From assembly GCA_000004985.1 (NCBI GenBank), contig GG738858.1: a stretch of 64,000 nucleotides of DNA; one strand, 5' to 3'. Positions 47,773 to 61,654 of the stretch are shown piece after piece. A program made the translations under genes and the position numbers. The stretch's first letter is position 1. Every line of letters starts with the position of its first letter. The notes under the pieces were generated by a model. The model had not been told where the DNA came from. It saw only the letters and a list, made by a program, of their open reading frames with translations, and made no database searches. Source of the stretch: Naegleria gruberi (Eukaryota).

Positions 47773-48189
47773 AGAGAAATTACAGTGGTTCCTATGTAAT
47801 GGTATCTATGGAAAGTTAATTTAATCAGGTCGTAGAACAGATTCTTAAATGCCTTATTTTACATCTGTTTTAAACCATCACAACCTGAAAAAAGATAATG
47901 TATTGGAGTGTATCCAACAAGTCCTAAACAGCCGTTATCGTGCTCAGTCAATTAGTCCACAACATTAGAAAGGTAATTTGTCTTGTTCTTTTTTTCTCAA
48001 GTCAATTACCATTTTCTTGGTGTTGAAAAATGATCAGTTGTGAGTCAATTTTTCCCTAATGATACCTAACCTTGTCCACATCATTCAATTTTTGCTGTGT
48101 TCCCACATAAAAGTGTGCTTAACATTTCTGTAATTTTGCCTTTTCGTTTGACAGCCACTAGAAAAAACGTAATCATAATATTAAAAAAT

Positions 48190-49698
48190 ATGTCACTTGC
48201 CAACCGAGAGAAAAGCAAAAGCTTTAATGTAGGTGACTACATGATAGTTTATGAAGAAGTGATGAAAAACAATCTCGCGAGGGAATGTTTCAGAGATTAT
48301 CTTCAAAATGTGGCATGTAGTGATGAGTCCATTCTTTTTCTAGACGAATACGAAAGATACAAACAGGAATATTCTCGTGTATTCGATATGATACTAAACC
48401 AACCTAATCTATCCGAAATTGACCATCACTGTGGAGAAATATACGATATGGCTGAAGGTTTAATGTACAAATTTATAAAACCAGAAAGTGAAAAGGAATT
48501 AAACGTAGGAAAACCCAAGATTGATTTATGGAAACGATGGAAAGATGAAATTTCATCATGTTCAATTCTAGAGTTTGAATCTTTTCACAAAGTTTTTCAT
48601 GATTTGGATCCAAATTTATTATTTCACGATATTGTAACAAGTGTCAACTTGGATTTACGAATTGATCAATTTCCAAGATTTTCACGATCTCCACAAATTT
48701 ACACTCTATTAGAAAAACAAGGAGAAACATTTACTAGAGCTATAGCTGTTGATATTTCACGAGGTTATCATGTGGATTTTAGATTTAAACCAAAAGATTT
48801 GGTAACTAATTTGATTTTTGATAGAGATTTGTATTTTGCATTTTCATTGATGGAAGATTCGCCTGATTGGCAAACTATTGAAAATAGCAAAAAGACACAA
48901 GCTCAATTTTACTATTCGAAAACACCCTATGTATTCGAAGATCAGAAACATAAGGGAATGCACATGTGTAAGGTGGTGTGTAATTTTGATTATCCCCTTG
49001 AAGATGTTTGGAAAGTTCTGAGACATGTCATTTCATTGGACGAACCTGGACGAACAGTTTCGAATATTAGACAACTAGGCTATATACCACCAAATTCTGA
49101 AAGAAAACCTCAAATGAATGTTGACGAATCAGCAGATCCATCAGAATACAATACACTAGGCCTCACCTTCTCAACATGTGAATTAGATTTCAAAGTTCCT
49201 GGCATGAAGAAGAGAGATATTCCACACACTCATACCACAATCTACGACCAAGCACTGCAGGGCTACGTGAACGTTGGACACACATCTTTCTTCAATGGAT
49301 ACGAAACACCAAAAGATTGTGTCCATGCAGATCTCTTCATTTTTTACTATGTCTGTAAGATTAGTCCATATCGTACTCGTTTCACACACATTGTATATTC
49401 TGATGGACATTTACCTGCAGCCATCAACAAGATTGTAACAATAACCATGTGGAAAAAGAGAGCTCTCTATTTTGAAAAGATATTTAACAAGATACTGAAA
49501 GATTTCACAGATAATGGATCAAGATTAATACGAGAGGGAGAATTGACTGATTGTTTTGGCCTTGATAAAAGTGCAAGAGATAATTTACAGGCATTCCCTA
49601 ATAGATCTTGGTATGAAGAGTATTTAAAGATGTTGCATACGAAAAATCCAAGTCCACGACTGAGTACCACATCCTCTTCAAAGTCATCAACTAAATAA
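48190..49698 (+). CDS. RGS (regulator of G-protein signalling) domain protein
   Basis: The N-terminal segment LARECFRDYLQNVACSDESILFLDEYERYKQEY matches the RGS-box core (F..FL..E.SEEN..FW…E.YK). ATG at 48190. The C-terminal 350 aa is unassigned. Confidence 0.5.
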   Translation: MSLANREKSKSFNVGDYMIVYEEVMKNNLARECFRDYLQNVACSDESILFLDEYERYKQEYSRVFDMILNQPNLSEIDHHCGEIYDMAEGLMYKFIKPESEKELNVGKPKIDLWKRWKDEISSCSILEFESFHKVFHDLDPNLLFHDIVTSVNLDLRIDQFPRFSRSPQIYTLLEKQGETFTRAIAVDISRGYHVDFRFKPKDLVTNLIFDRDLYFAFSLMEDSPDWQTIENSKKTQAQFYYSKTPYVFEDQKHKGMHMCKVVCNFDYPLEDVWKVLRHVISLDEPGRTVSNIRQLGYIPPNSERKPQMNVDESADPSEYNTLGLTFSTCELDFKVPGMKKRDIPHTHTTIYDQALQGYVNVGHTSFFNGYETPKDCVHADLFIFYYVCKISPYRTRFTHIVYSDGHLPAAINKIVTITMWKKRALYFEKIFNKILKDFTDNGSRLIREGELTDCFGLDKSARDNLQAFPNRSWYEEYLKMLHTKNPSPRLSTTSSSKSSTK

Positions 49699-50015: not shown

Positions 50016-51972
50016 ATGTTCAAAACATTGCAATCAGGTAAGTCTCGACTGAATTGTTTATATTGATGATGTTTTAATTATTTATCATCATCATTAGCTC
50101 CCGAATCCGAATCAGCCTCTGACTCTTTGAATGACACAGTTTCACCCTATTCTGCTCCTTCCTATAGAATTACAATAACAGGTAAATAATAGTAATATTT
50201 AAATAGTATTTACAATAAATAGTTGTGGAGGGAAAAGGATTTACTGGTGATAGAGATGGTAAGTAATAGTAATAATAATATTTTTTTTTAATAATACTAT
50301 ATTTAATACTATTTACAATAATAATATTTAATACAATTTAATGTATGCGTCGAAAATGATGAATAATATTGCCAATAACACTAATAGCATTTTGTAAATT
50401 ATGTGTAAATTCACCTAATTGTTGTATTCAAAAAACTAAAAGTAGAAAAACAGCAACACCACAATGGAATCAAGAATTTACATTTGAACCACTGTTTCGT
50501 AATTCACCAATGATTATTACATTGTGGAATAATAACTTGTTGTCAAAATCAGAATTTCTTGGATGTGTCCGATTGATTCCAATGAGAATAATTAGAGAAG
50601 ATGTTCTATTTGATGATTGGTTTGAATTGGAACCACTCAATACTCCTAGATATAGAAATACACCAATTATTAAAGGAGGAAAAATTAGATTACAAATTAA
50701 ATGGGAAAGATTGATTCAAAAAATTGAAACAGCTCACTATGGATTTGATGAACCAATTGAAAATTCACGAATTATTAGAGATACATCTGGAAAGGGTATT
50801 CATTTGCGTTTTAAAAATTTAGATACTTCAGATATTGAAAGTGCAGAAGGTGTTAATGGAAGGAGTAGATCTGCATACTTTTCTGGTTTCAATTACTTGG
50901 AAAGTAGTTATAATCCAACTAGAAATTTAACAGAATTTACAATTAGTTTTTGGTTTAAATGTCCTTCAATAGAGAAGGATTTTTCCATGTTGAGTACAAT
51001 TACAAGTAACAAGACACTCATCTTACAAGAATATAACAATAATAATATTCATCAACTTTCAACAGAATCAGCTGCATCACATTTAGAGAAATTATACACA
51101 TCCAATGAATCATCAAGTCCAGTTATTACATTATCTGCTCAACCAATCACATCAAACACTCATTATTTACCATCTCCAAGAGGAGGAAATCCAAATCCAT
51201 TTTCATTGAGTGTTGGTGGTCTGAGTGATGAGAAGAAGATTAGGAGATTGAGCTTGAATTCATTAGCTGCTTTGAATACAAGCTTCAGTTTAAAGAGAGG
51301 ATCGTAAGTATTTAAATTATAATTTCCAATAATAACAATTTCAGTAATTCTAAACAAGCTAAAAAGGATTTAACTGATGAGAGTATAATTTCAAAGAGTG
51401 GTTTCAGTTTAGGTACCAAAAAGATTGAATTTTATGATTGTAGAGGTCAATCTCTTGTTACTGAATTTAAATTGAAACAAAAGTCAACTCCAAATATGAC
51501 TCCTTCACTTGTACCAGAATTACAAACTCCTACTAACTCTACTGCAGATCCAAGAGTTGACTATGAAGCAATTTTTGCTGATATTCTTTCATTAATTAGT
51601 GATAGTGAAGAGTGTTATCTGACTTCAGATGCCAGTCGAAGCAGTTTAAGTTTGAGAATATATGATGAACCAGAGGAAACAAGTGAAAGCTTCCCTCGAG
51701 AAGAACTCTTTGACAAGGATGCTTGGAATCATGTTGCCTACGTCTACTCTGGTGATAGATTAAGAGAGTACATCAATAATATCCTTGTAGAGGATCAAAA
51801 ATGTGATTTTAGAATTCTTGGTTGTGGTTTGAATAGACTCTATGTTGGTGCTTCAAATGATGAATATTGTTTTGAAGGTTTCAAAGGTTTTCTTGATGAA
51901 ATCTCAATTCACAACTATGCAATGAATAAGAGTGAAATTTCCAAATTGTACAAATTCAAAGATATACAATAA
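50016..51972 (+). CDS. C2 domain plus concanavalin-A-like/LamG-like jelly-roll domain protein. Exons 50016..50037, 50098..50181, 50223..50258, 50388..51303, 51345..51972.
   Basis: The spliced N-terminus is MFKTLQS|APESESASDSLNDTVSPYSAPSYRITIT|VVEGKGFTGDRD|AFCKLCVNSPNCCIQKTKSRKTATPQWNQEFTFE…DDWFELE, a C2 fold. The C-terminus is AYFSGFNYLE…LTEFTISFWFK…WNHVAYVYSG…LYVGASN…GFLDEISIHNYA (LamG/pentraxin-like). The ATG at 49987 is out of frame with the exon joins, so 50016 is the start used. Confidence 0.5.
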
Positions 51973-51973
51973 A

Positions 51974-53248
51974 TCATTTGGTCCTTTTTGTAATATTTGG
52001 CAATCTTTCTAATGAATGTACTATTGGAAATGCACTGCTTGTGTTTGTGCTTTCTTTTCTCCCAGTGAGAGGATGTACATTCCTCGATCGATTAGGATTT
52101 AAAACATATTCTTTCAGATCCTTAAAATCCTTAACATCCTTCAAATCTTTAACTGCTATACTATCTTTCACTTGACTATCTTTTAATTCTTTCTGATCCT
52201 TCTTCTCCTTTAAATTATATGAATTGAATACGCTCCTTTTTCCTTGAAGAGTATCTGTGGAACTAGCCTTCTTCCTATCCTTTTTAATGGTTGATAAGGT
52301 TTCAGTAGTTTCTGGTAATTGTCTCTTCAAGTTGGATATTTCTTGTTTGATTTCTCTGAGTTCTCTCGGAGTGACAACTCTAGCTCCATTATACAAATGC
52401 AAACTCTCAATTACCTTATCCTTTTCATCACTAACCCTTGTCAAGACTTCAATAAGGGAGTCCTTTCTTTGAAGCTCTTGTTCCAGTAGGGAAAGCTTCT
52501 CCTCGTAAGTTGTTCGGAGTGAGGTTATTTCATCTTGACGAGCCTCCTCTAGTCTCTTCATATTCTTTAGAAGGTGTTCTAAATTCCTCAGATAATTATA
52601 TTTATCATTCCTTGATATGTATGTTTGATTATTATCCTGTTGAAGAAGAAATAATTGTAAATTCCTAACGACTGTTTCCGACAAGGATGTTGTTGAGAGA
52701 GTCCTCAAATCACCTTGAATAGCCTCAATTGATTTTCTAATTTGTTGCAATTCCTCACCCTCTCCTCCTCTAGCATTCGTAATACTACTATGATTTATAT
52801 TATTATTATAATTTAATAGGGCAGATGATGATGGATCATAAACATGAATTGGTGAGAGAATATTAATATTAATCGGCGTTTCTGCTCTGTCCACTTCTTC
52901 AATGCCCGTTGTTTTTGGTGAATTATTCTGACTAGCTAGTGTTGTTTCTACTATATTTCCTTCATCCTTGTTGCTTGAATGATTCTCCTCTTCTACAATT
53001 TCCGTTGAAGTCATCCTATTCGTTTTTGCTGTTGTTGTTGTTGTTAAAATATAACGCTCGCTTATTGAATAATCGCTTAAACAGTCTTTGATGGCAGTTG
53101 AAAAGGCAGTTGAGTGGTGTTGTGCTTTTAAGGAAAATTGAAAGGTTTTGTTCGTTGGGATGTTCAACAAGAATTTTTCTCTGAGCTTTTCGAAAATATC
53201 AATGGCTTGTTGTTTTGAACTGCCATAGAACAACAAAAAAAATGTCAC
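51974..53248 (-). CDS. Hypothetical coiled-coil protein (start uncertain; the ORF track begins at GTG)
   Basis: Long heptad-rich segments (…LQRKDSLIEVLTRVSDEKDKVIESL…) and VKDLKDVKDFKDLKEY repeats. No in-frame ATG near the 5' end, so an upstream exon or an internal start is possible. Confidence 0.35.
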   Translation of the reverse strand: MTFFLLFYGSSKQQAIDIFEKLREKFLLNIPTNKTFQFSLKAQHHSTAFSTAIKDCLSDYSISERYILTTTTTAKTNRMTSTEIVEEENHSSNKDEGNIVETTLASQNNSPKTTGIEEVDRAETPININILSPIHVYDPSSSALLNYNNNINHSSITNARGGEGEELQQIRKSIEAIQGDLRTLSTTSLSETVVRNLQLFLLQQDNNQTYISRNDKYNYLRNLEHLLKNMKRLEEARQDEITSLRTTYEEKLSLLEQELQRKDSLIEVLTRVSDEKDKVIESLHLYNGARVVTPRELREIKQEISNLKRQLPETTETLSTIKKDRKKASSTDTLQGKRSVFNSYNLKEKKDQKELKDSQVKDSIAVKDLKDVKDFKDLKEYVLNPNRSRNVHPLTGRKESTNTSSAFPIVHSLERLPNITKRTK

Positions 53249-54467
53249 TAATTCTTGGGTTAAATGATGACATGTACAGAGTAATATTTAGTTTTTTAGA
53301 AATTGATTTCATTCAAGAATGCATGCGTCTTGTACATACATCATTTAATATTCTCATCATTGAAGATGAAACAATACAACAACAATATTTATTGAAGAAA
53401 GTTCACAAGATGAGCCAAGATCCCGACAAGACACAATCAAATGTTCACTATAGAACTCCACTATATAATAGGTACCAGATGGAGTCCTTCTATTCTCCCT
53501 ATTTTAGAGTGGAAAAAGATTATCACCAAGCATTTCAAAGATTAAAGAGAGAATTTCATAGGAAAATGGAGGAAACTGAGGAGCAGAGAAGAAGTTTGGC
53601 ATCAAATCGTTATTTAACAAAGAAGGATATTTATCATCACTATGAGGAGATTAAATCAACTGTTAATGAAACTCACTTTGAACTATTGAGGGAAAATATT
53701 AGCAAAGAGGATAATGATGGAAAGCCAGTTCTAAAGTTGGTATGTTTGAATATTCTAATTTGAAAGAGTTTTATAATTTCAAAAAGATAATTAATGGAGA
53801 TGGAGGAGCAGGGAAAACATCTCTGCTTCAATATTTGGGATATGGACAAATGTTTGAATATTTCACTGCCCTTGACGCTTGCATTTCTTACTCTATTAAA
53901 TCGAATAACTCTGAAAAACAAGAGGTTATTAGTAAGTTTGAAATAATTGACACTGCAGGTAAGTAGAGTGTAGGTAAACTCTAAAATTAAACAAAAATAG
54001 GGCAGGAAGAGTAAGTACTCTAATTATTGAGCTCTTGAGTTCGTTTTTCAACAAACAGCTATGACAGAGTGAGACCACTAATTTACCCCGATACTCATAT
54101 ATTTTGTCTTTGTTTTAGTATTGTAATGCTTAGTAGTTTTGAAAATATTCAGTATAAATGGATTCCAGAAATTAAGCATCACATGCCAGACACTCCAATA
54201 ATGTTAATGGGTTGTAAAATTGATTTAAGGAAAAATCCTCTATCCTTAAAACAAATGAAATTCAGAAATTTCTCCAAACCTATCAGTTTTGAAGAAGGAG
54301 AATTAATGGCTCGTTCTTCTGGATGCTGTACCTATGTTGAATCCTCTGCACTCACTGGAGAAGGAAACATGACTGACTTTGCAGAAATTGCTTTCAAAAC
54401 TCTGATTTATTATAGAAATAAATCATTGTTATTTCCTGGAAGAGAGAAGAAATGCGAATTGATGTAA
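53242..54467 (+). CDS. F-box-like domain fused to a Rho/Rac-family GTPase with a C-terminal CaaX box. Exons 53242..53739, 53787..53958, a 10-nt micro-exon 54001..54010, and 54059..54467.
   Basis: The F-box-like motif is LNDDMYRVIFSFLEIDFIQECMRLV. The GTPase reads KL|IINGDGGAGKTSLL (G1)…EIIDTAG|GQE|DYDRVRPLIYPDTHIFCLCFSIV. That is an exact Rac switch II, DTAGQEDYDRLRPLSYP, restored only when the micro-exon GGCAGGAAGA is included. LMGCKIDL (G4) and SSALT (G5). C-terminal CELM (CaaX, farnesyl-type). All donors are gtaagt/gtatgt and acceptors ag. Confidence 0.6.
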
Positions 54468-54949: not shown

Positions 54950-56536
54950 CTAGTTGTCAGAGTTATGTGCAACTTTTTTGAGATATTTCTCTAGTCGTTT
55001 GGTTTTCTTTTCAGTCATATTGTTCCCAAACAATGATAAATATTCCAGTTTTTTCATTCCTAACAAGTGTTGAATACAATCATCAGTCAGATCATTAGAT
55101 TGTAAGTCTAGATACTTCAAATTTGGCAACCCACTAATCCATTTGATTGCGTTATCGTCTAGACCACAGAAATTCATTTCTAGATAGGTCAAATTGATCA
55201 AATTCTTGTGCCAATATTTAAAACCTTCAACACTTTCAACTAGGTCAGTAAGTGACAAATGAAGACTGGTTAGTTGTTTCATTAAGCCAAGTTGTTTTAG
55301 CACTTCACTACAACAACCAACACATTCTGAAATATCCAATATAGTTAACCTTGGTAATTTTGAAATTGATTTTACCCCTTTAACAGATATTTGTCCACCA
55401 CTAATATTTAGATATGTCAACTCCTTTAAAGAGCTTATTGAGTCTAAAAAATCATCACAAATTTCATTTCCATCAATAAAAAGAGTTGTCAGTTTTGTAA
55501 GAGATGTCAAATATTTTGCTCCACTACTGGTGATTTCATGTTGAGAAATATTTAAATATGTAAGTTGTGTAAGGGAGGCAACTAGTTTAGCTGCCTCATC
55601 ACCAAGTGCATCAATAATTGAATGGTTGCCAATATCAAGTACTCTCAAATTCTTCATAGAGCTAATCCACTTAAGTCCTTCATTTCCAAAATCATTCTTT
55701 GATATATAAAGTTCTGTCAGGTTTATCATTTTAGTAAGGCTTTCGCAGGATTCACTTTCAATCCAAATTCTGTTAATATGGAGGGTTTGCAATGATTCCA
55801 TAGAAGAAATAGGCAGCAAACCTAATGGTCCTAAATCATTATTTCCAATATCTAAAAATGTTAATGATTTTAATCTACTAATAATGTCAGCATCTTCAAA
55901 AGTCAAATTACAGTTATTCACATCCAAACTTGTCAACTTTTTCAAAGAACTTAAATGTTCTACATCTTGGTTCTCCAAATGCACTGATGAAATATTTAAA
56001 CTTGTTAAATTTTCAATCATTCCAATATATTTCACACCATTAGCGCATTTAGTCTTACTAACATTCAATACAGTCAAATGTTTCAAAGATTTCAAACACT
56101 TGACACCTTCCCTGTAACAATTTTGTCCACTCAAATCTAATTCTCGTAAATTATAAAATCGTTTCTGAATAATTGTAAAAATCAAAAGATTATATTTTAA
56201 GTGCAAACATTCTACCCGATCAATATATTTCTGATGACTTTGAGAGAGTTTCTTCCATTCTCTCCTTTCACTAATCCGAAAATTAAATTTAATTCTCGTC
56301 ATAATAATGTCAAACCACTGTCGGCAAACTAGTATACAATTTGTTAGTACTTGAACTGAATCTAAATATGTGATCACCTCAAAAGTCATATCACTGGAGA
56401 GAAAATCAATATTATATTCTAGTTCTTCTTTTGAATCTGAAATGTATTGTTGATCAAGGAGCAATTTTAGATGGTTTTGGTTTTTGATTTTCTTAAGCTT
56501 GGAAATGATGGAATCAAAGGTGCGTTTTCGTTTCAT
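54950..56536 (-). CDS. F-box / ribonuclease-inhibitor-type LRR protein (ATG at 56536; the ORF track starts at an upstream TTG)
   Basis: The F-box-like motif is DMTFEVITYLDSVQVLTNCILVCRQWFDII. It is followed by more than 12 RI-like LRRs (LTSLDVNNCNLTFEDADIISRLKSLTFLDIGNNDLG…). Confidence 0.6.
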   Translation of the reverse strand: MKRKRTFDSIISKLKKIKNQNHLKLLLDQQYISDSKEELEYNIDFLSSDMTFEVITYLDSVQVLTNCILVCRQWFDIIMTRIKFNFRISERREWKKLSQSHQKYIDRVECLHLKYNLLIFTIIQKRFYNLRELDLSGQNCYREGVKCLKSLKHLTVLNVSKTKCANGVKYIGMIENLTSLNISSVHLENQDVEHLSSLKKLTSLDVNNCNLTFEDADIISRLKSLTFLDIGNNDLGPLGLLPISSMESLQTLHINRIWIESESCESLTKMINLTELYISKNDFGNEGLKWISSMKNLRVLDIGNHSIIDALGDEAAKLVASLTQLTYLNISQHEITSSGAKYLTSLTKLTTLFIDGNEICDDFLDSISSLKELTYLNISGGQISVKGVKSISKLPRLTILDISECVGCCSEVLKQLGLMKQLTSLHLSLTDLVESVEGFKYWHKNLINLTYLEMNFCGLDDNAIKWISGLPNLKYLDLQSNDLTDDCIQHLLGMKKLEYLSLFGNNMTEKKTKRLEKYLKKVAHNSDN

Positions 56537-56934
56537 TTTTTTTATTAAGATCAAAAAGATTAAGATGATCTTGAAATTTTTTGAGTAACTTTCTATTGAA
56601 TTGAGGATGCTATTCAAACTAATGACCAATCTCTTAAGTATTGAATTGATCTTGTCAGCTGTGGAAATTTTCTTGAAAATTCATCAAGTTTACAAAAGCT
56701 GTTAATACAATTTCTCTGTCGTTTCTCAATTCTTCATTAAATTCAAGTGCTAAAAATCCATCCCTTTCTGCAATTAGTTTTACAATTATTTTCACTTTCC
56801 AAAAATTCAACGGTATGTCATCTAAATCCTCATCTGAACAGAAAAGTGTTTAATTAAATAGGTATATATAAGCATCTTCTTTACAATTATTCGAATCAAA
56901 ACCCTGGACTCTATCTTCAAACATCAATATAAGA

Positions 56935-57181: not shown

Positions 57182-59678
57182 ATGCAAGTTCAACCTGTAC
57201 CAGAAGAATCCGTTAGTTTATTAGAAAGCACACCAAAAAGAAGGAAAGGAGGTTGCATACCTCTACATGCATTTGTCATGATAACAATTTCTGTTTTGAT
57301 TTTGAGTGGTTGTCTTTTAGTTTGGCTTTCGTCTTTCATTGTTTCATCCTATTCGATTCAGAATTTGAATACGAATTTGATAGACGAATCTGCACAAAAG
57401 ATTAGTAGAACACTTGAAGGTTTTTTGAGTCCAGTTGGAAAGGTAATGTTGATGATTCGACTAGTTTATCTTAGTTTCTAACTGTTTATTCGAACAATTA
57501 GATAACGAGAATGATGGCTCGTGACTGGAATAAGGGAGTCGTCACAGTTTCGAATATGAGAGACTATTTACATCCAATCATTGTAGAGTTTGGCTTCACC
57601 TCAGCTGGTTTCTTTTTCAACGATACCTATTCGTATAGATATGCTTTTTCTGTTCAGGGAACTGTTAGTTCATTATTTTGGGGTAAGTTTAACTTTCGTA
57701 CGATTTATTAATGACCTTTCGAATAGTTTATGTAAGACAAGATTATGGTCAAGTAATTTCTTACAGAGATAAAGTCAATATCACCACAGGAGACGTAATC
57801 GTTCCAAACTTTATCAAAGTTGTTCCTCAAGTAGTTAACACTTTCGACTATTGGCTATTTATGGTAAACTATACCAGAGACACTGGAAGCGAAGGCGCAT
57901 TTGGCGATCCTTCTTTTGCAGCTGGTTCTGGATTTGCTCTGACCTACACTCAATGGGTCTATGATCAATTTCTCTGGAAAAACCAAACGAAAAAGAGATT
58001 TATTGGTCTAGCCAAAATCAACCTGTCACTTGACTATATAGTTCAGTATCTTTCGAGTAATATTGATTTGATTGGTGATGGTTATGTGGTTGTTACATTG
58101 AATAGTGGAATTGTAATTGGTGGTTCAATTAATACAACTGTGAATGATGGAACGACAGTTGCGAATATTTTTGACATTGAGACAAGAAAAGCGGGAAAAA
58201 CAATTAAGAAATTTTACGAAATGAATGGAAATACCTTTAAAAACTTTTCGTCGAAAAGTTTGACAGTAGAAAGTGAAGGAGTGAAATATATTGTTTCACC
58301 ATTCAAGTTTAGGTATGAAAATTTGGAGTGGAACATTTTCTTTGTTTTATACGAATCTGATGTCAATGCCCCAATGGTAATGAGTTCTTCCATAAGTGTT
58401 GGAATGACAGTTCTAATTATCATTGTCGGTTTAGTGGCAAGTTTATTGACTGGTTGGTTAGTGGCAAGTCCAATGAGATTCTTAGAGAAACAATTCGAAT
58501 TCATACGAGTCATGAAATTAGAAAATGTCAACATGACAAAATCATCCCCATTCAGAGAATTTCATTCCATTTACGGTAATTTAAATGATACAGTCATGTG
58601 GCTTAATGAAATTAAGGCTTTCATTCCAGAACATGTCTTTGCTCAGCTTAATCAAAGTGAGGAAATTTCACTTCCACCTCCAAAAGAAACCAAAAAGCAT
58701 GCAAAGAAAGAAACCGAATTTGAAGATATGAATGCAAGACAGTCACGTTCAAATTTGGGTTCAAGTCAAGTTTTAAGTTCAGGAAGTGCCGTTAGCCACT
58801 TAGCAAGAAATTCATCATTCAAATCTCCTTCCATTTTCAAGACTGGTTACTTAAAGAAGGGATGTGCCTTTGTACATGTCAAGTTGGAAGGTCTTTCCAA
58901 TAAGGATACTAATTTCATTTCTTCCTTTTTTGAGAAATTCATGTCCTCAGTGGGTCCAATTATTAAGGTACAGCAGGCAAATATTCAGTTTATTACATGT
59001 GATGAATTTGAATTCTCCATTACATCAAAGTATGTGGAGGGCAAACTACTGGAGAAGACAATCGAATGTTGTAATAAGATTGTAAAGACCATTGATCCAA
59101 ATGATAGAATTCAGGCAAGAATTGGAATTTGCTGTGGAATGGCTGAAGTTGGTAATATAGGGACCAAAACAGCAAGATTCTACTCTGTCCATGGTGATGT
59201 TCCAAATTGTGCCCGTTACTATTCTGATCTTGCATGTCAATACAATGTCAATATGATAACAGATGACAAGAATTTACCATTGGACAACTTTATCACAAGA
59301 CCACTTGATAGAATTCAAATTCCTTCAAATGTAGTATTAACTATTTATCAAATAATTGCTAAGAAAAATCAGGAAAATGACGAGTGGCTTTATGAATTGG
59401 AAAATAATAAGCTCAATGACAAGTACAATGAATATTCCAACATATTCAAATTATTCAGTATCAGTGATGATAATTATGATGTAGCTCCTCTCATTAATAG
59501 TGCGAAGGAAATACTGGATCAATACAAACTCAAAGGTTTGGACGAAAGTGATCTTTCCTTTTCCAATTTGAGAAACTTGTTGCATGTATTGAGCCAATCA
59601 CCAAAGCAGGAAGCTCTTTCAATACTACAATCTTATTCGAACACACTTGTGAAGGAAATGAAATCAAATAAATTATAA
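57182..59678 (+). CDS. Receptor-type class III nucleotidyl (adenylyl/guanylyl) cyclase-like membrane protein. Exons 57182..57442, 57502..57682, 57727..59678.
   Basis: An N-terminal TM (FVMITISVLILSGCLLVWLSSFIV), a roughly 300-aa extracellular sensor-like region, and a second TM (VGMTVLIIIVGLVASLLTGWLV). The C-terminal catalytic-domain motifs are CAFVHVKLEGLS… and RIGICCGMAEVGNIGTKTARFYSVHGDVPNCARYYSDLA, against the consensus [RK]IGIHTG.V.AGVVG…Y…GD.VN.ASR.ES. The frame is kept across the gtaatg and gtaagt introns. Confidence 0.5.
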
Positions 59679-59788: not shown

Positions 59789-61654
59789 ATGAAAAGAAAG
59801 CAATTCGATGATGAGAAACTACCCACCAGCAAGAAATTAAAAGAATGCCCACAAATAACAAGCAGTGCTGTTTCTTGTGTACTTGATGAAAGTTTCGGAT
59901 CAAATTTTCTCCACATTAAATTTACTTTAACCAGAAAATCAATAATCAAGTGGAAAACAAATATTCCCTCTGATTTTATTCCTATTGAATATTATTTTGA
60001 TAAAGAATTTGTTATGGAGGTGGTAAAGAAGGATGGATATGAACTCAGGTGTGCTTCACATGAATTGACAAATGACAGACAAGTTGTTTTGGAGGCAGTC
60101 AAGAATAATGTAAATGCTATTTGGTTTGCATCTGCAAATTTGAAAAATGACAAGGAGTTTATAAAACTTGTGCTGGAAAAAGAAATTAATCATGAGGAAT
60201 TCATATATGGATCAGTACTCGCTTGTTTGTCGAATGAATTAAGAAATGACAGAGAAATTGTTTTACAAGCAGTAAAACAACATGCGTTTGCATTGGAATT
60301 TGCCTCACGAACATTACAGAATGATTACAATCTTGTTTTGAAAGCAGTTCAACTCCATGGAAGTTCACTCACAAAAGCTTCTTTAGAGTTGAAAAACAAC
60401 AGAACAATAGTATTGGAAGCAATCAAAAGAAATGGATCAGCATTCAGATATGCCTCAAAGAAATTGAGAAATGACAGACAAGTTATTTTGGAGGCAATCA
60501 AGACCTATGATCAAACACTTTACTTTACCTCAGAAGAACTGCAGAATAATAAGGAATTTATTTTAGAAGCAGTGAAAATGAATGGCTGGATACTTAAATG
60601 TACATCAAGTGAATTGAAAAATGATGAGGAAGTTGTATTGGAAGCAGTAAGACGAAACAGACAATCACTAAAGTTTGCTTCTGGAAAATTGCAGCAAGAT
60701 ACTGATTTCGTTTTGAAAGCTATTACGCAAAATACAGAGGCACACCAACTTGACTTGGACGGTGATGCAATAATTATTGAACGACAGCATATTTTGGATG
60801 CTATTAAGAAACAAGACGGAACTGTTATTCAAACAATACCAAGTCCATTTCAAAACGACAAGGAAATTGTAATGGAAGCAGTTAAACAAAATGGGTTAGC
60901 GCTAAAATATGCCTCACATGAGCTTCAGAATGATACTGAAATAGTTTTGGAAGCTGTTAAAAGAAATAATTATGCTCTCAAATATGCCTCAATGGAATTG
61001 AGAAATAACAAACAAGTTGTCTTGGAAGCAGTTAAAAGTCACTCAAACGCGCTCAAATATGCCTCAGAAGAGCTGCAGAATGATAAGGAAATAGTTCTAG
61101 AAGCAGTTAAACAAAGTGGATATACACTCAAATATGCCTCCACCGAACTACAACACGATAAGGAATTAGTTTTAATAGCGATTCAACAGTATGGAATTAT
61201 TTGCCCAGAGGAGTTTAGTAATGATAGGGAATTTCTTTTGCAAGCTGCTAAACCAAATGGACGTTCTGTAATGGAATTTGTTTCGAATGAATTAAGAAAA
61301 GATCAACAATTTATTTTGGAGCTGGTTAAACGAAATGTATTAGAAACTCATTATCTTCCAAATGAATTTAGACATGACATGAAACTTATGTCTGAGATAG
61401 TTAGACACAATGGAGTAGCATTGAAATACAGTTCAGAAGAATTGACAATTGAAGAAAAATATATTTTGGAAGAAGAAGCAATTTTACAAAATGGATTTTG
61501 TTTGGATTTTAGTTTTGAAAAATTTTGTAAAAGGATCACACGAGAATATCCTGAATTATACTTGCCAAATTACAAGTTTAAACATTTGGGTGTTGATTTT
61601 CATGTATTGAATGCGCCATTTAGCGTTCCTAATGTAGCAAAGTTGTTCTATTAG
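59789..61654 (+). CDS. DUF4116-repeat protein (at least 13 tandem ~30-aa repeats)
   Basis: Repeats of the form EIVLEAVKQNGYALKYASEELQNDKE recur throughout, which is the DUF4116 pattern. Single exon, ATG at 59789. Confidence 0.55.
   Translation: MKRKQFDDEKLPTSKKLKECPQITSSAVSCVLDESFGSNFLHIKFTLTRKSIIKWKTNIPSDFIPIEYYFDKEFVMEVVKKDGYELRCASHELTNDRQVVLEAVKNNVNAIWFASANLKNDKEFIKLVLEKEINHEEFIYGSVLACLSNELRNDREIVLQAVKQHAFALEFASRTLQNDYNLVLKAVQLHGSSLTKASLELKNNRTIVLEAIKRNGSAFRYASKKLRNDRQVILEAIKTYDQTLYFTSEELQNNKEFILEAVKMNGWILKCTSSELKNDEEVVLEAVRRNRQSLKFASGKLQQDTDFVLKAITQNTEAHQLDLDGDAIIIERQHILDAIKKQDGTVIQTIPSPFQNDKEIVMEAVKQNGLALKYASHELQNDTEIVLEAVKRNNYALKYASMELRNNKQVVLEAVKSHSNALKYASEELQNDKEIVLEAVKQSGYTLKYASTELQHDKELVLIAIQQYGIICPEEFSNDREFLLQAAKPNGRSVMEFVSNELRKDQQFILELVKRNVLETHYLPNEFRHDMKLMSEIVRHNGVALKYSSEELTIEEKYILEEEAILQNGFCLDFSFEKFCKRITREYPELYLPNYKFKHLGVDFHVLNAPFSVPNVAKLFY

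What the first reader, a model, noticed from the sequence alone, without database searches (positions are those of the whole stretch)
53242..54467. F-box-like domain fused to a Rac/Rho GTPase with CaaX box
The N-terminal F-box-like motif (LNDDMYRVIFSFLEIDFIQECMRLV) is joined through a ~130-aa linker to a complete Rho-family GTPase. Its G1 is GDGGAGKTSLL, its switch II is DTAGQEDYDRVRPLIYP, and it ends in the CaaX motif CELM. An SCF-adaptor-type domain in cis with a Rho GTPase is not a described architecture to my knowledge. It could tether a GTPase switch to ubiquitin-ligase recruitment, or target the GTPase for regulated degradation.
Basis: partly seen in the sequence, partly recalled or inferred. 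Interest (0 to 1): 0.65.

Follow-up and report, generated by a model that had tools for sequence, protein, structure and literature searches.

The report
Naegleria Rho GTPase with worn F-box
This is a correctly read gene of the amoeba Naegleria gruberi for a Rho-type molecular switch with a worn-down F-box at its front end; such F-box-GTPase fusions in Naegleria were already catalogued in 2021 but have never been tested experimentally.

Summary
It has three parts: an N-terminal F-box-like stretch, a conserved helical module (not a loose linker), and a complete Rho-family GTPase with Rho insert, polybasic tail and CaaX box CELM.

The protein is letter-for-letter the manually corrected model XP_002679223.1* ('Rac') of Naegleria gruberi in Table S8 of Herman et al. 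2021 (PMC8296547).

The N-terminus gets no Pfam F-box hit on its own. It is nevertheless clearly homologous (E=1.8e-12) to the N-terminal module of about 20 heterolobosean Rho proteins. Four of these pass Pfam's F-box threshold, and their joint profile hits the F-box of human FBXO3 (E=3.4e-6). So it is a degenerate F-box.

The claim that the architecture is undescribed is wrong. [quoted passage not shown] Only the F-box flag on this particular gene is new.

Binding to Skp1 and any SCF function are untested, and are doubtful for this divergent, fast-evolving, N. gruberi-specific copy.

The parts
53242..53739 (+). Exon 1 (166 codons): the whole N-terminal module
   Evidence: The ORF starts at the first ATG after an A-rich leader. 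It is followed by GTATGT. It matches the start of the curated model XP_002679223.1*.
53260..53388 (+). Degenerate F-box (aa 7-49, LNDDMYRVIFSFLEIDFIQECMRLVHTSFNILIIEDETIQQQY)
   Evidence: It gets no Pfam F-box hit by itself. The family F-box HMM, built without this subgroup, scores it at 27 bits, E=3e-6. AlphaFold2 places three short helices at aa 9-18, 21-31 and 36-40. The family consensus LNDDxxRxILSFLxIxxLxxLxLVSKSFRxxxLxxEDxxWKxYY matches Pfam F-box above threshold in 4 members.
53389..53739 (+). Conserved helical module between the F-box and the GTPase (aa 50-166)
   Evidence: The family HMM aligns across aa 4-146 of the window protein. Long helices are predicted at aa 75-88, 94-122 and 127-153. 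In the paralogue P0012 this module is modelled with pLDDT 85-95, and the whole protein has pTM 0.81.
53740..53786 (+). Intron 1 (47 nt, GT..AG), at the junction between module and GTPase
   Evidence: The splice sites are identical in L001, and 3 of the 17 substitutions fall in this intron.
53787..53958 (+). Exon 2: strand beta1, P-loop, switch I, beta2-beta3, DTAG
53796..53819 (+). G1 / P-loop GDGGAGKT (aa 170-177)
   Evidence: It aligns to GDGAVGKT of TC10 and Cdc42.
53859..53882 (+). Divergent switch I YFTALDAC (aa 191-198), with Thr193 at the place of Rac1 Thr35
   Evidence: Thr193 is Asn in the 98.5%-identical strain L001.
53959..54000 (+). Intron 2 (42 nt, GT..AG)
54001..54010 (+). 10-nt micro-exon GGCAGGAAGA (completes G-Q-E-D of switch II, with Gln225 at the place of Rac1 Gln61)
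   Evidence: Only with this exon does the frame stay open and does DTAGQEDYDRVRPL result. The curated model has the same sequence. The public model of paralogue XP_002673500.1 lacks DYDR at this spot, and the curated one restores it.
54011..54058 (+). Intron 3 (48 nt, GT..AG), within switch II
   Evidence: The only intron of N. lovaniensis P0012 lies at the homologous place.
54059..54467 (+). Exon 4: rest of the GTPase domain, tail and stop. G4 CKID is at 54213-54224, the Rho insert at about 54228-54281, and G5 SSAL at 54342-54353.
54441..54464 (+). Basic tail plus CaaX box REKK-CELM (aa 355-362). Cys359 is the predicted prenylation site.
   Evidence: C-terminal CxxM/CxxQ is conserved in the paralogues: CQLM, CKQQ, CMLQ, CFLQ.

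Best explanation
Shown:
- The locus is the Naegleria gruberi gene whose corrected model is XP_002679223.1*.
- It encodes one polypeptide made of a degenerate F-box, a conserved helical module, and a sequence-complete Rho-family GTPase with Rho insert, basic tail and CaaX box.
- It belongs to a paralogue family found, as far as the search went, only in Heterolobosea (Naegleria and Willaertia). Some members also carry N-terminal Kelch repeats.
- Within the family it sits in a small N. gruberi-specific, fast-evolving subgroup, together with XP_002673500.1 and the putative pseudogene XP_002674984.1.

Inferred mechanism:
- The protein is farnesylated at Cys359 and held on a membrane.
- The GTPase cycles between GDP and GTP states. 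All nucleotide-binding and catalytic residues are in place: G12-, T17-, T35-, D57-, Q61- and KxD-equivalents.
- The F-box-derived N-terminus, held in a fixed position by the helical module, docks the protein to Skp1 and Cul1.
- The Rho domain therefore sits where the WD40 or LRR substrate-binding domain sits in ordinary F-box proteins.
- It would either bring nucleotide-state-specific partners to an SCF ligase at the membrane, or make the GTPase itself subject to SCF-dependent turnover.
- This is the F-box/Cul1 counterpart of RhoBTB/Cul3.

My confidence in the identity and architecture is about 0.95. My confidence in the SCF-linked mechanism for this particular copy is about 0.4.
For: Gene model and identity:
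- establish the model and its identity to XP_002679223.1*.

Rho membership:
- Pfam Ras matches at 4e-31.
- TC10, Cdc42 and Rac1 are the best matches at ~1e-38, with the insert aligned.

Family:
- An exhaustive profile search of 1.84 billion representatives found 20 proteins.
- All the named ones come from N. gruberi, N. fowleri, N. lovaniensis or Willaertia magna.

F-box homology:
- 11 of 19 members hit PF00646 at E<=0.01.
- Four exceed the 20.5-bit cut-off: P0130 24.2, P0124 22.3, P0135 21.8, P0133 21.7.
- The family profile hits the FBXO3 F-box at E=3.4e-6, and nine of the twelve weaker hits are F-box proteins matched within their first ~60 residues, where the F-box of these proteins lies.
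- The window N-terminus scores E=1.8e-12 against a family HMM that excludes its own subgroup.

Fusion is not a splicing artefact:
- In N. lovaniensis P0012 the first 225 codons are continuous.

Rigid arrangement:
- The full-length P0012 model has pLDDT 86.6 and pTM 0.81.

Prior proposal of the same idea:
- PMC8296547, Additional File 4.

Analogues:
- RhoBTB binds cullin 3, is itself a substrate, and is autoinhibited by its GTPase domain (PMC4931677).
- Prenylated F-box proteins FBXL2 and FBXO10 act as membrane-compartment SCF receptors (PMC9988375, PMC11042265).
Against: - The window protein has no Pfam F-box or F-box-like hit even at E<=10.
- Compared with the family consensus it has lost the LVSK motif and the Trp of EDxxW. 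The proline of the usual F-box 'LP' is Asn in the whole family.
- The N-terminal model is only of medium confidence (pLDDT 70.6, pTM 0.37).
- Between two strains the gene shows 10 non-synonymous and 4 synonymous changes (dN/dS ~0.58). These include Thr193Asn at the switch-I threonine and changes in G5.
- A sister paralogue is flagged as a pseudogene in Table S8.
- Switch I is far from the Rac/Cdc42 effector sequence.
- No transcript, protein, Skp1-binding or nucleotide-binding data exist for this gene or for any member of the family.
Confidence: 0.45

Rival explanations
1. The F-box is only a relic. The N-terminal helical module no longer binds Skp1. Instead it acts as a built-in regulatory or scaffolding domain of an atypical Rho GTPase. 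It might pack against the GTPase domain to control switch access, dimerisation or partner choice. There would be no link to ubiquitin ligases.
For: - The window protein gets no Pfam F-box hit.
- It has lost family-conserved F-box positions.
- The high pTM of 0.81 for the full-length paralogue model suggests that the N-terminal module and the GTPase form one compact body.
- The helical part after the F-box is as well conserved as the F-box itself.
- In RhoBTB the GTPase domain is engaged in an intramolecular, autoinhibitory contact (PMC4931677).
Against: - Other family members keep an F-box that passes Pfam thresholds, so the ancestral state was a real F-box.
- F-box is recurrently fused to four different GTPase families in Naegleria, which argues for a selected ubiquitin-related role rather than a neutral scaffold.
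- The first helix (LNDDxxRxIFSFL) is still well kept in the window copy.
Confidence: 0.35
2. The gene is a decaying, recently duplicated paralogue on its way to becoming a pseudogene. It would be a product of the birth-and-death turnover of Naegleria GTPase genes, with no maintained function.
For: - dN/dS is ~0.58, with 10 of 14 exonic differences changing the protein. These include the switch-I Thr193Asn and two G5 changes.
- No orthologue above 32% identity was found in N. lovaniensis or N. fowleri.
- The sister gene XP_002674984.1 is flagged as a putative pseudogene.
- Herman et al. note dynamic birth-and-death evolution for the F-box Rab-like clades.
Against: - The 362-codon frame, the start, the stop, all six splice sites and the 10-nt micro-exon are intact in two strains.
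- All core GTPase motifs and the CaaX box are present.
- The curators did not flag it as a pseudogene.
- 48% identity to XP_002673500.1 along the full length, with conserved motifs, implies long-term constraint.
- 14 substitutions are too few to tell dN/dS 0.58 from either 0.2 or 1.
Confidence: 0.1
3. Two separate genes: exon 1 gives a small stand-alone F-box-like protein (it runs into a stop 7 codons into intron 1), and exons 2-4 give an ordinary small Rho GTPase.
For: - Exon 1 plus read-through is an open frame of 173-182 aa, and it was called as a separate ORF by a prokaryotic gene finder in a metagenome (P0121).
- No transcript data are available.
Against: - Exons 2-4 alone would lack a start codon in the right place. 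The strand beta1 residues KLIING span the exon 1/2 junction.
- The same N-terminal module is fused to a Rho domain in at least 12 full-length proteins from four species.
- In N. lovaniensis P0012 both parts lie in one exon.
- Expert curators built the same fused model.
Confidence: 0.02

Closest known systems
Naegleria 'Rac + F-box' genes of Herman et al. 2021 (BMC Biol, PMC8296547, Additional Files 4 and 10). Examples: N. gruberi XP_002671699.1, XP_002676320.1, XP_002672610.1 (Kelch + F-box + Rho), and N. fowleri FDP41_007326.
   Same: - Same organism and same gene family.
- Same order of parts: F-box, helical module, Rho domain, CxxQ/CxxM tail.
- The window protein's N-terminus matches their common profile at E=1.8e-12.
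- The window protein is itself row XP_002679223.1* of their table.
   Different: - In that table this gene and its closest paralogue XP_002673500.1 carry no 'F-box' entry. Their F-box is too degenerate for SMART, Pfam or CDD.
- No Kelch repeats.
- Divergent switch I.
- Lineage-specific subgroup without a close orthologue in N. fowleri or N. lovaniensis.
RhoBTB (metazoa, Dictyostelium RacA; also present in Naegleria)
   Same: - A Rho-family GTPase domain in cis with a cullin-RING-ligase adaptor domain.
- The adaptor recruits a cullin, the protein is itself a ligase substrate, and the GTPase domain regulates the adaptor intramolecularly (PMC4931677).
- RhoBTB3 also ends in a CaaX box.
   Different: - The adaptor is a tandem BTB domain (Cul3), located C-terminal of the GTPase. 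Here an F-box-derived domain (Skp1/Cul1 type) lies N-terminal.
- No BTB hit in the window protein.
- Independent origin.
TbFRP (FYVE - F-box - GTPase) of Euglenozoa (PMC3593210)
   Same: [quoted passage not shown]
- It is found in the sister lineage of Heterolobosea within Discoba.
- A membrane-targeting device is present.
[quoted passage not shown]
   Different: - The GTPase is Rab18-like, not Rho.
- Membrane targeting is by a PI3P-binding FYVE domain, not a CaaX box.
- The authors found no orthologue in N. gruberi.
- No FYVE hit here.
Prenylated F-box proteins FBXL2 and FBXO10 (mammals)
   Same: F-box at the N-terminus and CaaX box at the C-terminus. This gives SCF ligases confined to particular membranes (PMC9988375, PMC11042265).
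   Different: - The substrate-binding part is LRR or another repeat domain, not a GTPase.
- They are geranylgeranylated (CVIL type), whereas CELM ends in Met, which by the usual rule (my own knowledge) favours farnesylation.
Canonical Rac1 / Cdc42 / TC10
   Same: - About 40% identity over the G domain.
- All G motifs, the Rho insert, switch II DTAGQEDYDR and a CaaX tail are present.
   Different: - A 166-aa N-terminal extension.
- Switch I is YFTALDAC instead of YIPTVFDNY.
- G4 is CKID instead of TKLD.
- A longer beta2-beta3 hairpin.

Membership tests
Rho family of small GTPases | Ras-superfamily G domain with G1-G5 motifs | tested here: met
   Pfam Ras matches at 4e-31, 108 bits against a cut-off of 21.6. 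The motifs present are GDGGAGKT, Thr193, DTAGQ, CKID and SSAL.
Rho family of small GTPases | Closest relatives are Rho/Rac/Cdc42 rather than Ras/Rab/Arf/Ran | tested here: met
   All 60 best solved-structure matches are TC10, Cdc42 or Rac, at E 1e-38 to 5e-37. The top database hits are Rho-family proteins. It is classed as 'Rac' by Herman et al..
Rho family of small GTPases | Rho insert between strand beta5 and helix alpha4 | tested here: met
   IDLRKNPLSLKQMKFRNFSKPI aligns without loss to IDLRDDPKTLARLNDMK-EKPI of TC10.
Rho family of small GTPases | C-terminal prenylation signal | tested here: met
   REKK-CELM-stop. Actual prenylation is not testable here.
Rho family of small GTPases | Guanine-nucleotide binding and hydrolysis | not testable with these tools
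   This is inferred only from the conserved residues. Note that Thr193 is Asn in a second strain.
F-box domain (Pfam PF00646 / PF12937) | The protein itself matches the F-box profile at or above the curated threshold | tested here: not met
   No F-box or F-box-like hit at E<=10, for the whole protein, for aa 1-166 or for aa 1-60.
F-box domain (Pfam PF00646 / PF12937) | Homology to domains that do pass the F-box profile | tested here: met
   - The window N-terminus scores 47.8 bits, E=1.8e-12 against a family HMM built without its subgroup. The F-box part alone scores 27 bits, E=3e-6.
- Four family members pass PF00646's 20.5-bit cut-off, and 11 of 19 hit it at E<=0.01.
- The family profile hits the FBXO3 F-box at E=3.4e-6.
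F-box domain (Pfam PF00646 / PF12937) | Three-helix F-box fold | tested here: inconclusive
F-box domain (Pfam PF00646 / PF12937) | Binds Skp1 and thereby joins an SCF ligase | not testable with these tools
   There are no binding data. The presence of Skp1 and Cul1 in N. gruberi was not checked here.
Heterolobosean F-box-Rho family (Herman et al. 2021) | N-terminal F-box plus conserved helical module directly upstream of a Rho domain, in one polypeptide | tested here: met
   Alignments A2 and A4, the HMM test and the continuous exon in P0012.
Heterolobosean F-box-Rho family (Herman et al. 2021) | Listed with 'F-box' as additional domain in Table S8 | tested here: not met
   Row XP_002679223.1* has an empty 'Additional domain(s)' field. 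This criterion is a matter of bookkeeping, not of biology.
RhoBTB | Tandem BTB domains C-terminal of the Rho domain | tested here: not met
   No BTB hit. The protein ends 24 residues after the G domain.
TbFRP-type FYVE-F-box-GTPase | N-terminal FYVE domain and Rab-like GTPase | tested here: not met
   No FYVE hit, and the GTPase is Rho-type.

The most novel reading that the evidence does not exclude
The heterolobosean F-box-Rho proteins, this one included, would be membrane-anchored SCF substrate receptors in which a Rho GTPase domain has taken the place of the usual WD40, LRR or Kelch substrate-binding domain. Substrate recruitment to the ligase, or the receptor's own destruction, would then be gated directly by the GDP/GTP state. 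This would be a hard-wired 'GTPase-dependent ubiquitination' switch that arose independently of RhoBTB-Cul3.
Probability: 0.25. Interest if true: 0.65.

Novelty: already known. Interest (0 to 1): 0.27.

Why it matters
If the F-box-GTPase fusions of Naegleria really assemble with Skp1 and Cul1, they would be a second, independently evolved way of wiring a Rho switch straight into a cullin-RING ubiquitin ligase. RhoBTB with Cul3 is the first.

They would also be unusually numerous. [quoted passage not shown]

That would be of interest for how amoeboid cells couple cytoskeletal and membrane signalling to protein turnover, and possibly for the biology of the pathogen N. fowleri.

For the scan itself the result is modest:
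- The architecture and this very gene model are already in the literature.
- The only increment is recognising that XP_002679223.1 and XP_002673500.1, left unflagged by the curators, also carry a worn F-box.

Tried and rejected
- Pfam was run on the window protein, on aa 1-166 and on aa 1-60. It found no F-box.
- A word-index search with the N-terminus alone returned only a 98%-identical metagenome ORF. The exhaustive profile search was needed to find the family.
- A profile of only three sequences against PDB sequences gave FBXO3 at E=0.9, which is not significant. With 19 sequences the E-value became 3.4e-6.
The N. lovaniensis paralogue was used instead.
- The AlphaFold-database library was not available.
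- Exact look-ups of the window protein, of P0001 and of the 621-aa neighbour found no record. The species assignment therefore rests on the identical sequence in Table S8.
- A literature search for Skp1 in Naegleria gave nothing usable.
- Membership in RhoBTB or the TbFRP family was rejected, because there is no BTB or FYVE domain.
- The 'two separate genes' reading was rejected.
- A neighbour-joining tree of GTPase domains is too weak to say whether the fusion arose once. Monophyly of all module-bearing proteins has only 22/100 support.
Full report
**What is there.**
- The window is AT-rich (about 33% G+C) eukaryotic DNA with short introns.
- From the ATG at 53242 an open frame of 166 codons runs to a GTATGT at 53740.
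- Three short GT..AG introns (47, 42 and 48 nt) and a 10-nt micro-exon (54001-54010) join it to the rest of the coding sequence, which ends at TAA 54465-54467.
- The spliced CDS is 1089 nt with no frame break and gives 362 residues.

**Whose gene it is.**
- The best database relative is N. gruberi XP_002673500.1, at 48% identity over 99% of the length. A 32%-identical full-length protein comes from N. lovaniensis.
- The decisive result came from the literature. The 362-aa sequence derived here is printed, letter for letter, as the manually corrected model XP_002679223.1* under the annotation 'Rac' in the N. gruberi sheet of Table S8 of Herman et al. 2021 (PMC8296547).
- In that row the 'putative pseudogene?' and 'Additional domain(s)' fields are empty. 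The column meanings are given.
- So the window is N. gruberi, and expert curators independently reached the same splice model, micro-exon included.
- A metagenome contig (L001) carries the same gene at 98.5% identity, with all splice sites and the frame intact.

**The GTPase half.**
- Pfam Ras matches at 4e-31 over aa 165-338.
- All 60 best solved-structure sequences are TC10, Cdc42 or Rac at about 1e-38, and the alignment runs through the Rho insert.
- The P-loop, the switch-I threonine (Thr193), DTAGQ (Gln225), the KxD motif (CKID) and SAL are all present.
- Switch I (YFTALDAC) is far from the Rac/Cdc42 effector loop.
- The tail is basic and ends in a CaaX box. Related proteins end in CQLM, CKQQ, CMLQ or CFLQ.
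- By the usual rule (my own knowledge) a final Met or Gln favours farnesylation.
- Membership in the Rho family is met on every sequence criterion. Nucleotide binding itself cannot be tested here.

**The N-terminal half.**
- On its own, the window protein fails the F-box profiles. There is no PF00646 or PF12937 hit at E<=10 for the whole protein, for aa 1-166 or for aa 1-60.
- The two closest full-length relatives give sub-threshold hits at exactly the right place, at 12.7-17.3 bits.
- I built a profile from the three N-termini and searched 1.84 billion representative proteins exhaustively. Twenty proteins came back.
- All those that carry a name are from N. gruberi, N. fowleri, N. lovaniensis or Willaertia magna. 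The rest are unnamed metagenome ORFs.
- They share the consensus LNDDxxRxILSFLxIxxLxxLxLVSKSFRxxxLxxEDxxWKxYY, followed by a conserved helical stretch and then a Rho domain. Several also have Kelch repeats in front.
- Of 19 members, 11 hit Pfam F-box at E<=0.01, and four exceed the curated 20.5-bit cut-off.
- A profile of the 19 F-box regions hits the F-box of human FBXO3 at E=3.4e-6. Nine of the twelve weaker hits are also F-box proteins, matched within their first ~60 residues, where the F-box of these proteins lies.
- To make sure the window copy is not riding on its relatives, I built an HMM from the 16 members outside its subgroup. It scores the window N-terminus at 47.8 bits (E=1.8e-12 for a proteome-sized search) and the F-box part alone at 27 bits (E=3e-6).
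- Conclusion: the N-terminus is a genuine but degenerate F-box. The '130-aa linker' is a conserved helical module, not a linker.

**Is the fusion real?**
- Yes. In N. lovaniensis P0012 the F-box, the helical module, the P-loop, switch I and DTAGQP are one uninterrupted exon of 225 codons. Its single intron lies in switch II, at the same place as intron 3 here.
- The same order of parts recurs in at least a dozen full-length proteins of four species.
- The full-length P0012 model has pLDDT 86.6 and pTM 0.81. This suggests the N-terminal module and the GTPase form one compact unit.

**What is already known.**
- Additional File 4 of Herman et al. 2021 says that both Naegleria species have genes with novel architectures that include a Ras-superfamily GTPase domain.
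[quoted passage not shown] - Table S8 flags many 'Rac' rows with F-box or Kelch plus F-box.
- UniProt-derived names already call several family members 'F-box domain-containing protein'.
- An F-box plus GTPase protein (TbFRP: FYVE, F-box, Rab-like) was described in trypanosomes in 2013. Its authors found no orthologue in N. gruberi.
- What is new here is small. XP_002679223.1 and its sister XP_002673500.1, which the curators left without an F-box flag, do carry a worn F-box.

**How it most likely works.**

Shown:
- One polypeptide with an F-box-derived domain, a conserved helical module, a sequence-complete Rho domain and a CaaX tail.

Inferred:
- The protein is prenylated and membrane-bound, and it cycles between nucleotide states.
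- Its N-terminus docks to Skp1/Cul1, so the Rho domain occupies the position of the substrate-binding domain of ordinary F-box proteins.
- Either nucleotide-state-specific partners are delivered to an SCF ligase at the membrane, or the GTPase itself is turned over.

Analogues:
- RhoBTB/Cul3, including its self-ubiquitination and its intramolecular inhibition by the GTPase domain (PMC4931677).
- The prenylated F-box proteins FBXL2 and FBXO10, which confine SCF activity to particular membranes.

I put about 0.4 on this mechanism for this copy.

The main rival (0.35) is that the F-box is a relic and the helical module now serves only as an internal regulator of the GTPase.

**Signs of weak constraint.**
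- Between the window and L001 there are 14 exonic differences. Ten change the protein (dN/dS about 0.58, against 0.34 for the neighbouring LRR gene). Among them are Thr193Asn in switch I and two changes in G5.
- The gene has no close orthologue in N. fowleri or N. lovaniensis.
- In a rough neighbour-joining tree it pairs with XP_002673500.1 at 100/100.
- The third member of the subgroup, XP_002674984.1, is flagged as a pseudogene.
- This fits the birth-and-death turnover the curators describe. The numbers are too small to call the gene decaying, and its frame, splice sites and motifs are intact in both strains.

**Verdict.** However, this is a known kind of gene in a known family, and this very model is already published in a supplement. 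Interest is low to moderate. The open question, whether any F-box-GTPase fusion truly works with SCF, remains untested for the whole family. It would be better attacked with a paralogue whose F-box is intact.

Noticed in passing
window 54950-56629 (- strand): The convergent neighbour is a 559-aa leucine-rich-repeat protein (Pfam LRR_14 at 2.6e-34). Its N-terminus gives sub-threshold F-box-like and F-box hits (17.7 and 14.4 bits) at aa 77-112. Two F-box-type genes therefore lie tail to tail.
   Followed up: partly
window 54512 / 56600; L001 1770-1865: In the 98.5%-identical metagenome contig L001, the sequence after the Rho gene's 3' UTR continues directly with window 56600 downwards. The ~2.1-kb block holding the LRR gene is therefore inverted relative to the window, or the contig is chimeric. 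No long inverted repeats flank the block.
   Followed up: partly
window 53865-53867 (codon 193): The switch-I threonine (Thr193, equivalent to Rac1 Thr35) is Asn in the second strain. G5 SSALTGEG is SSAFSGEG there. This is unusual for a working small GTPase.
   Followed up: partly
window 54001-54010; P0001 (XP_002673500.1): The public model of the paralogue XP_002673500.1 reads DTAGQEELRPL, and the curated one reads DTAGQEDYDRLRPL. The automatic annotation evidently mis-spliced this stretch, perhaps by missing a micro-exon like the one here (that locus was not examined). N. lovaniensis P0012 has its only intron at the same switch-II position.
   Followed up: partly
L002 (N. lovaniensis PYSW02000064.1) and cluster data: P0012 and P0134, both F-box-Rho, lie 16 locus tags apart on one 92-kb contig. 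Near-identical copies P0144 and P0143 lie 15 tags apart on a 455-kb contig. This is either a duplicated block or an unmerged haplotype.
   Followed up: no
window 59789-61654 (+): A 621-aa ORF made almost entirely of 13 DUF4116 repeats (Pfam 2e-153). The row for a Naegleria Rab5 paralogue (XP_002675879.1*) in Table S8 lists 'DUF41, STYKc' as additional domains; its printed repeats look like DUF4116 to the eye, but I did not test that.
   Followed up: no
window 48097-49698 (+), 50369-51972 (+), 57711-59678 (+): Other signalling-type ORFs surround the gene:
- an RGS-domain protein;
- a C2 ORF (50369-51307) followed on the same strand by a Laminin_G_3 ORF (51472-51972);
- a 655-aa ORF with an adenylate/guanylate-cyclase match just under the Pfam cut-off (21.4 against 21.9 bits).
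   Followed up: no
window 53215-53763 and P0121: Prokaryote-style ORF calling on metagenomes has deposited exon 1 plus 7 intron codons as a stand-alone 173-aa 'protein' (P0121). Likewise, P0122 reads straight through an in-frame intron of the paralogue. Such fragments inflate the apparent number of orphan proteins.
   Followed up: no
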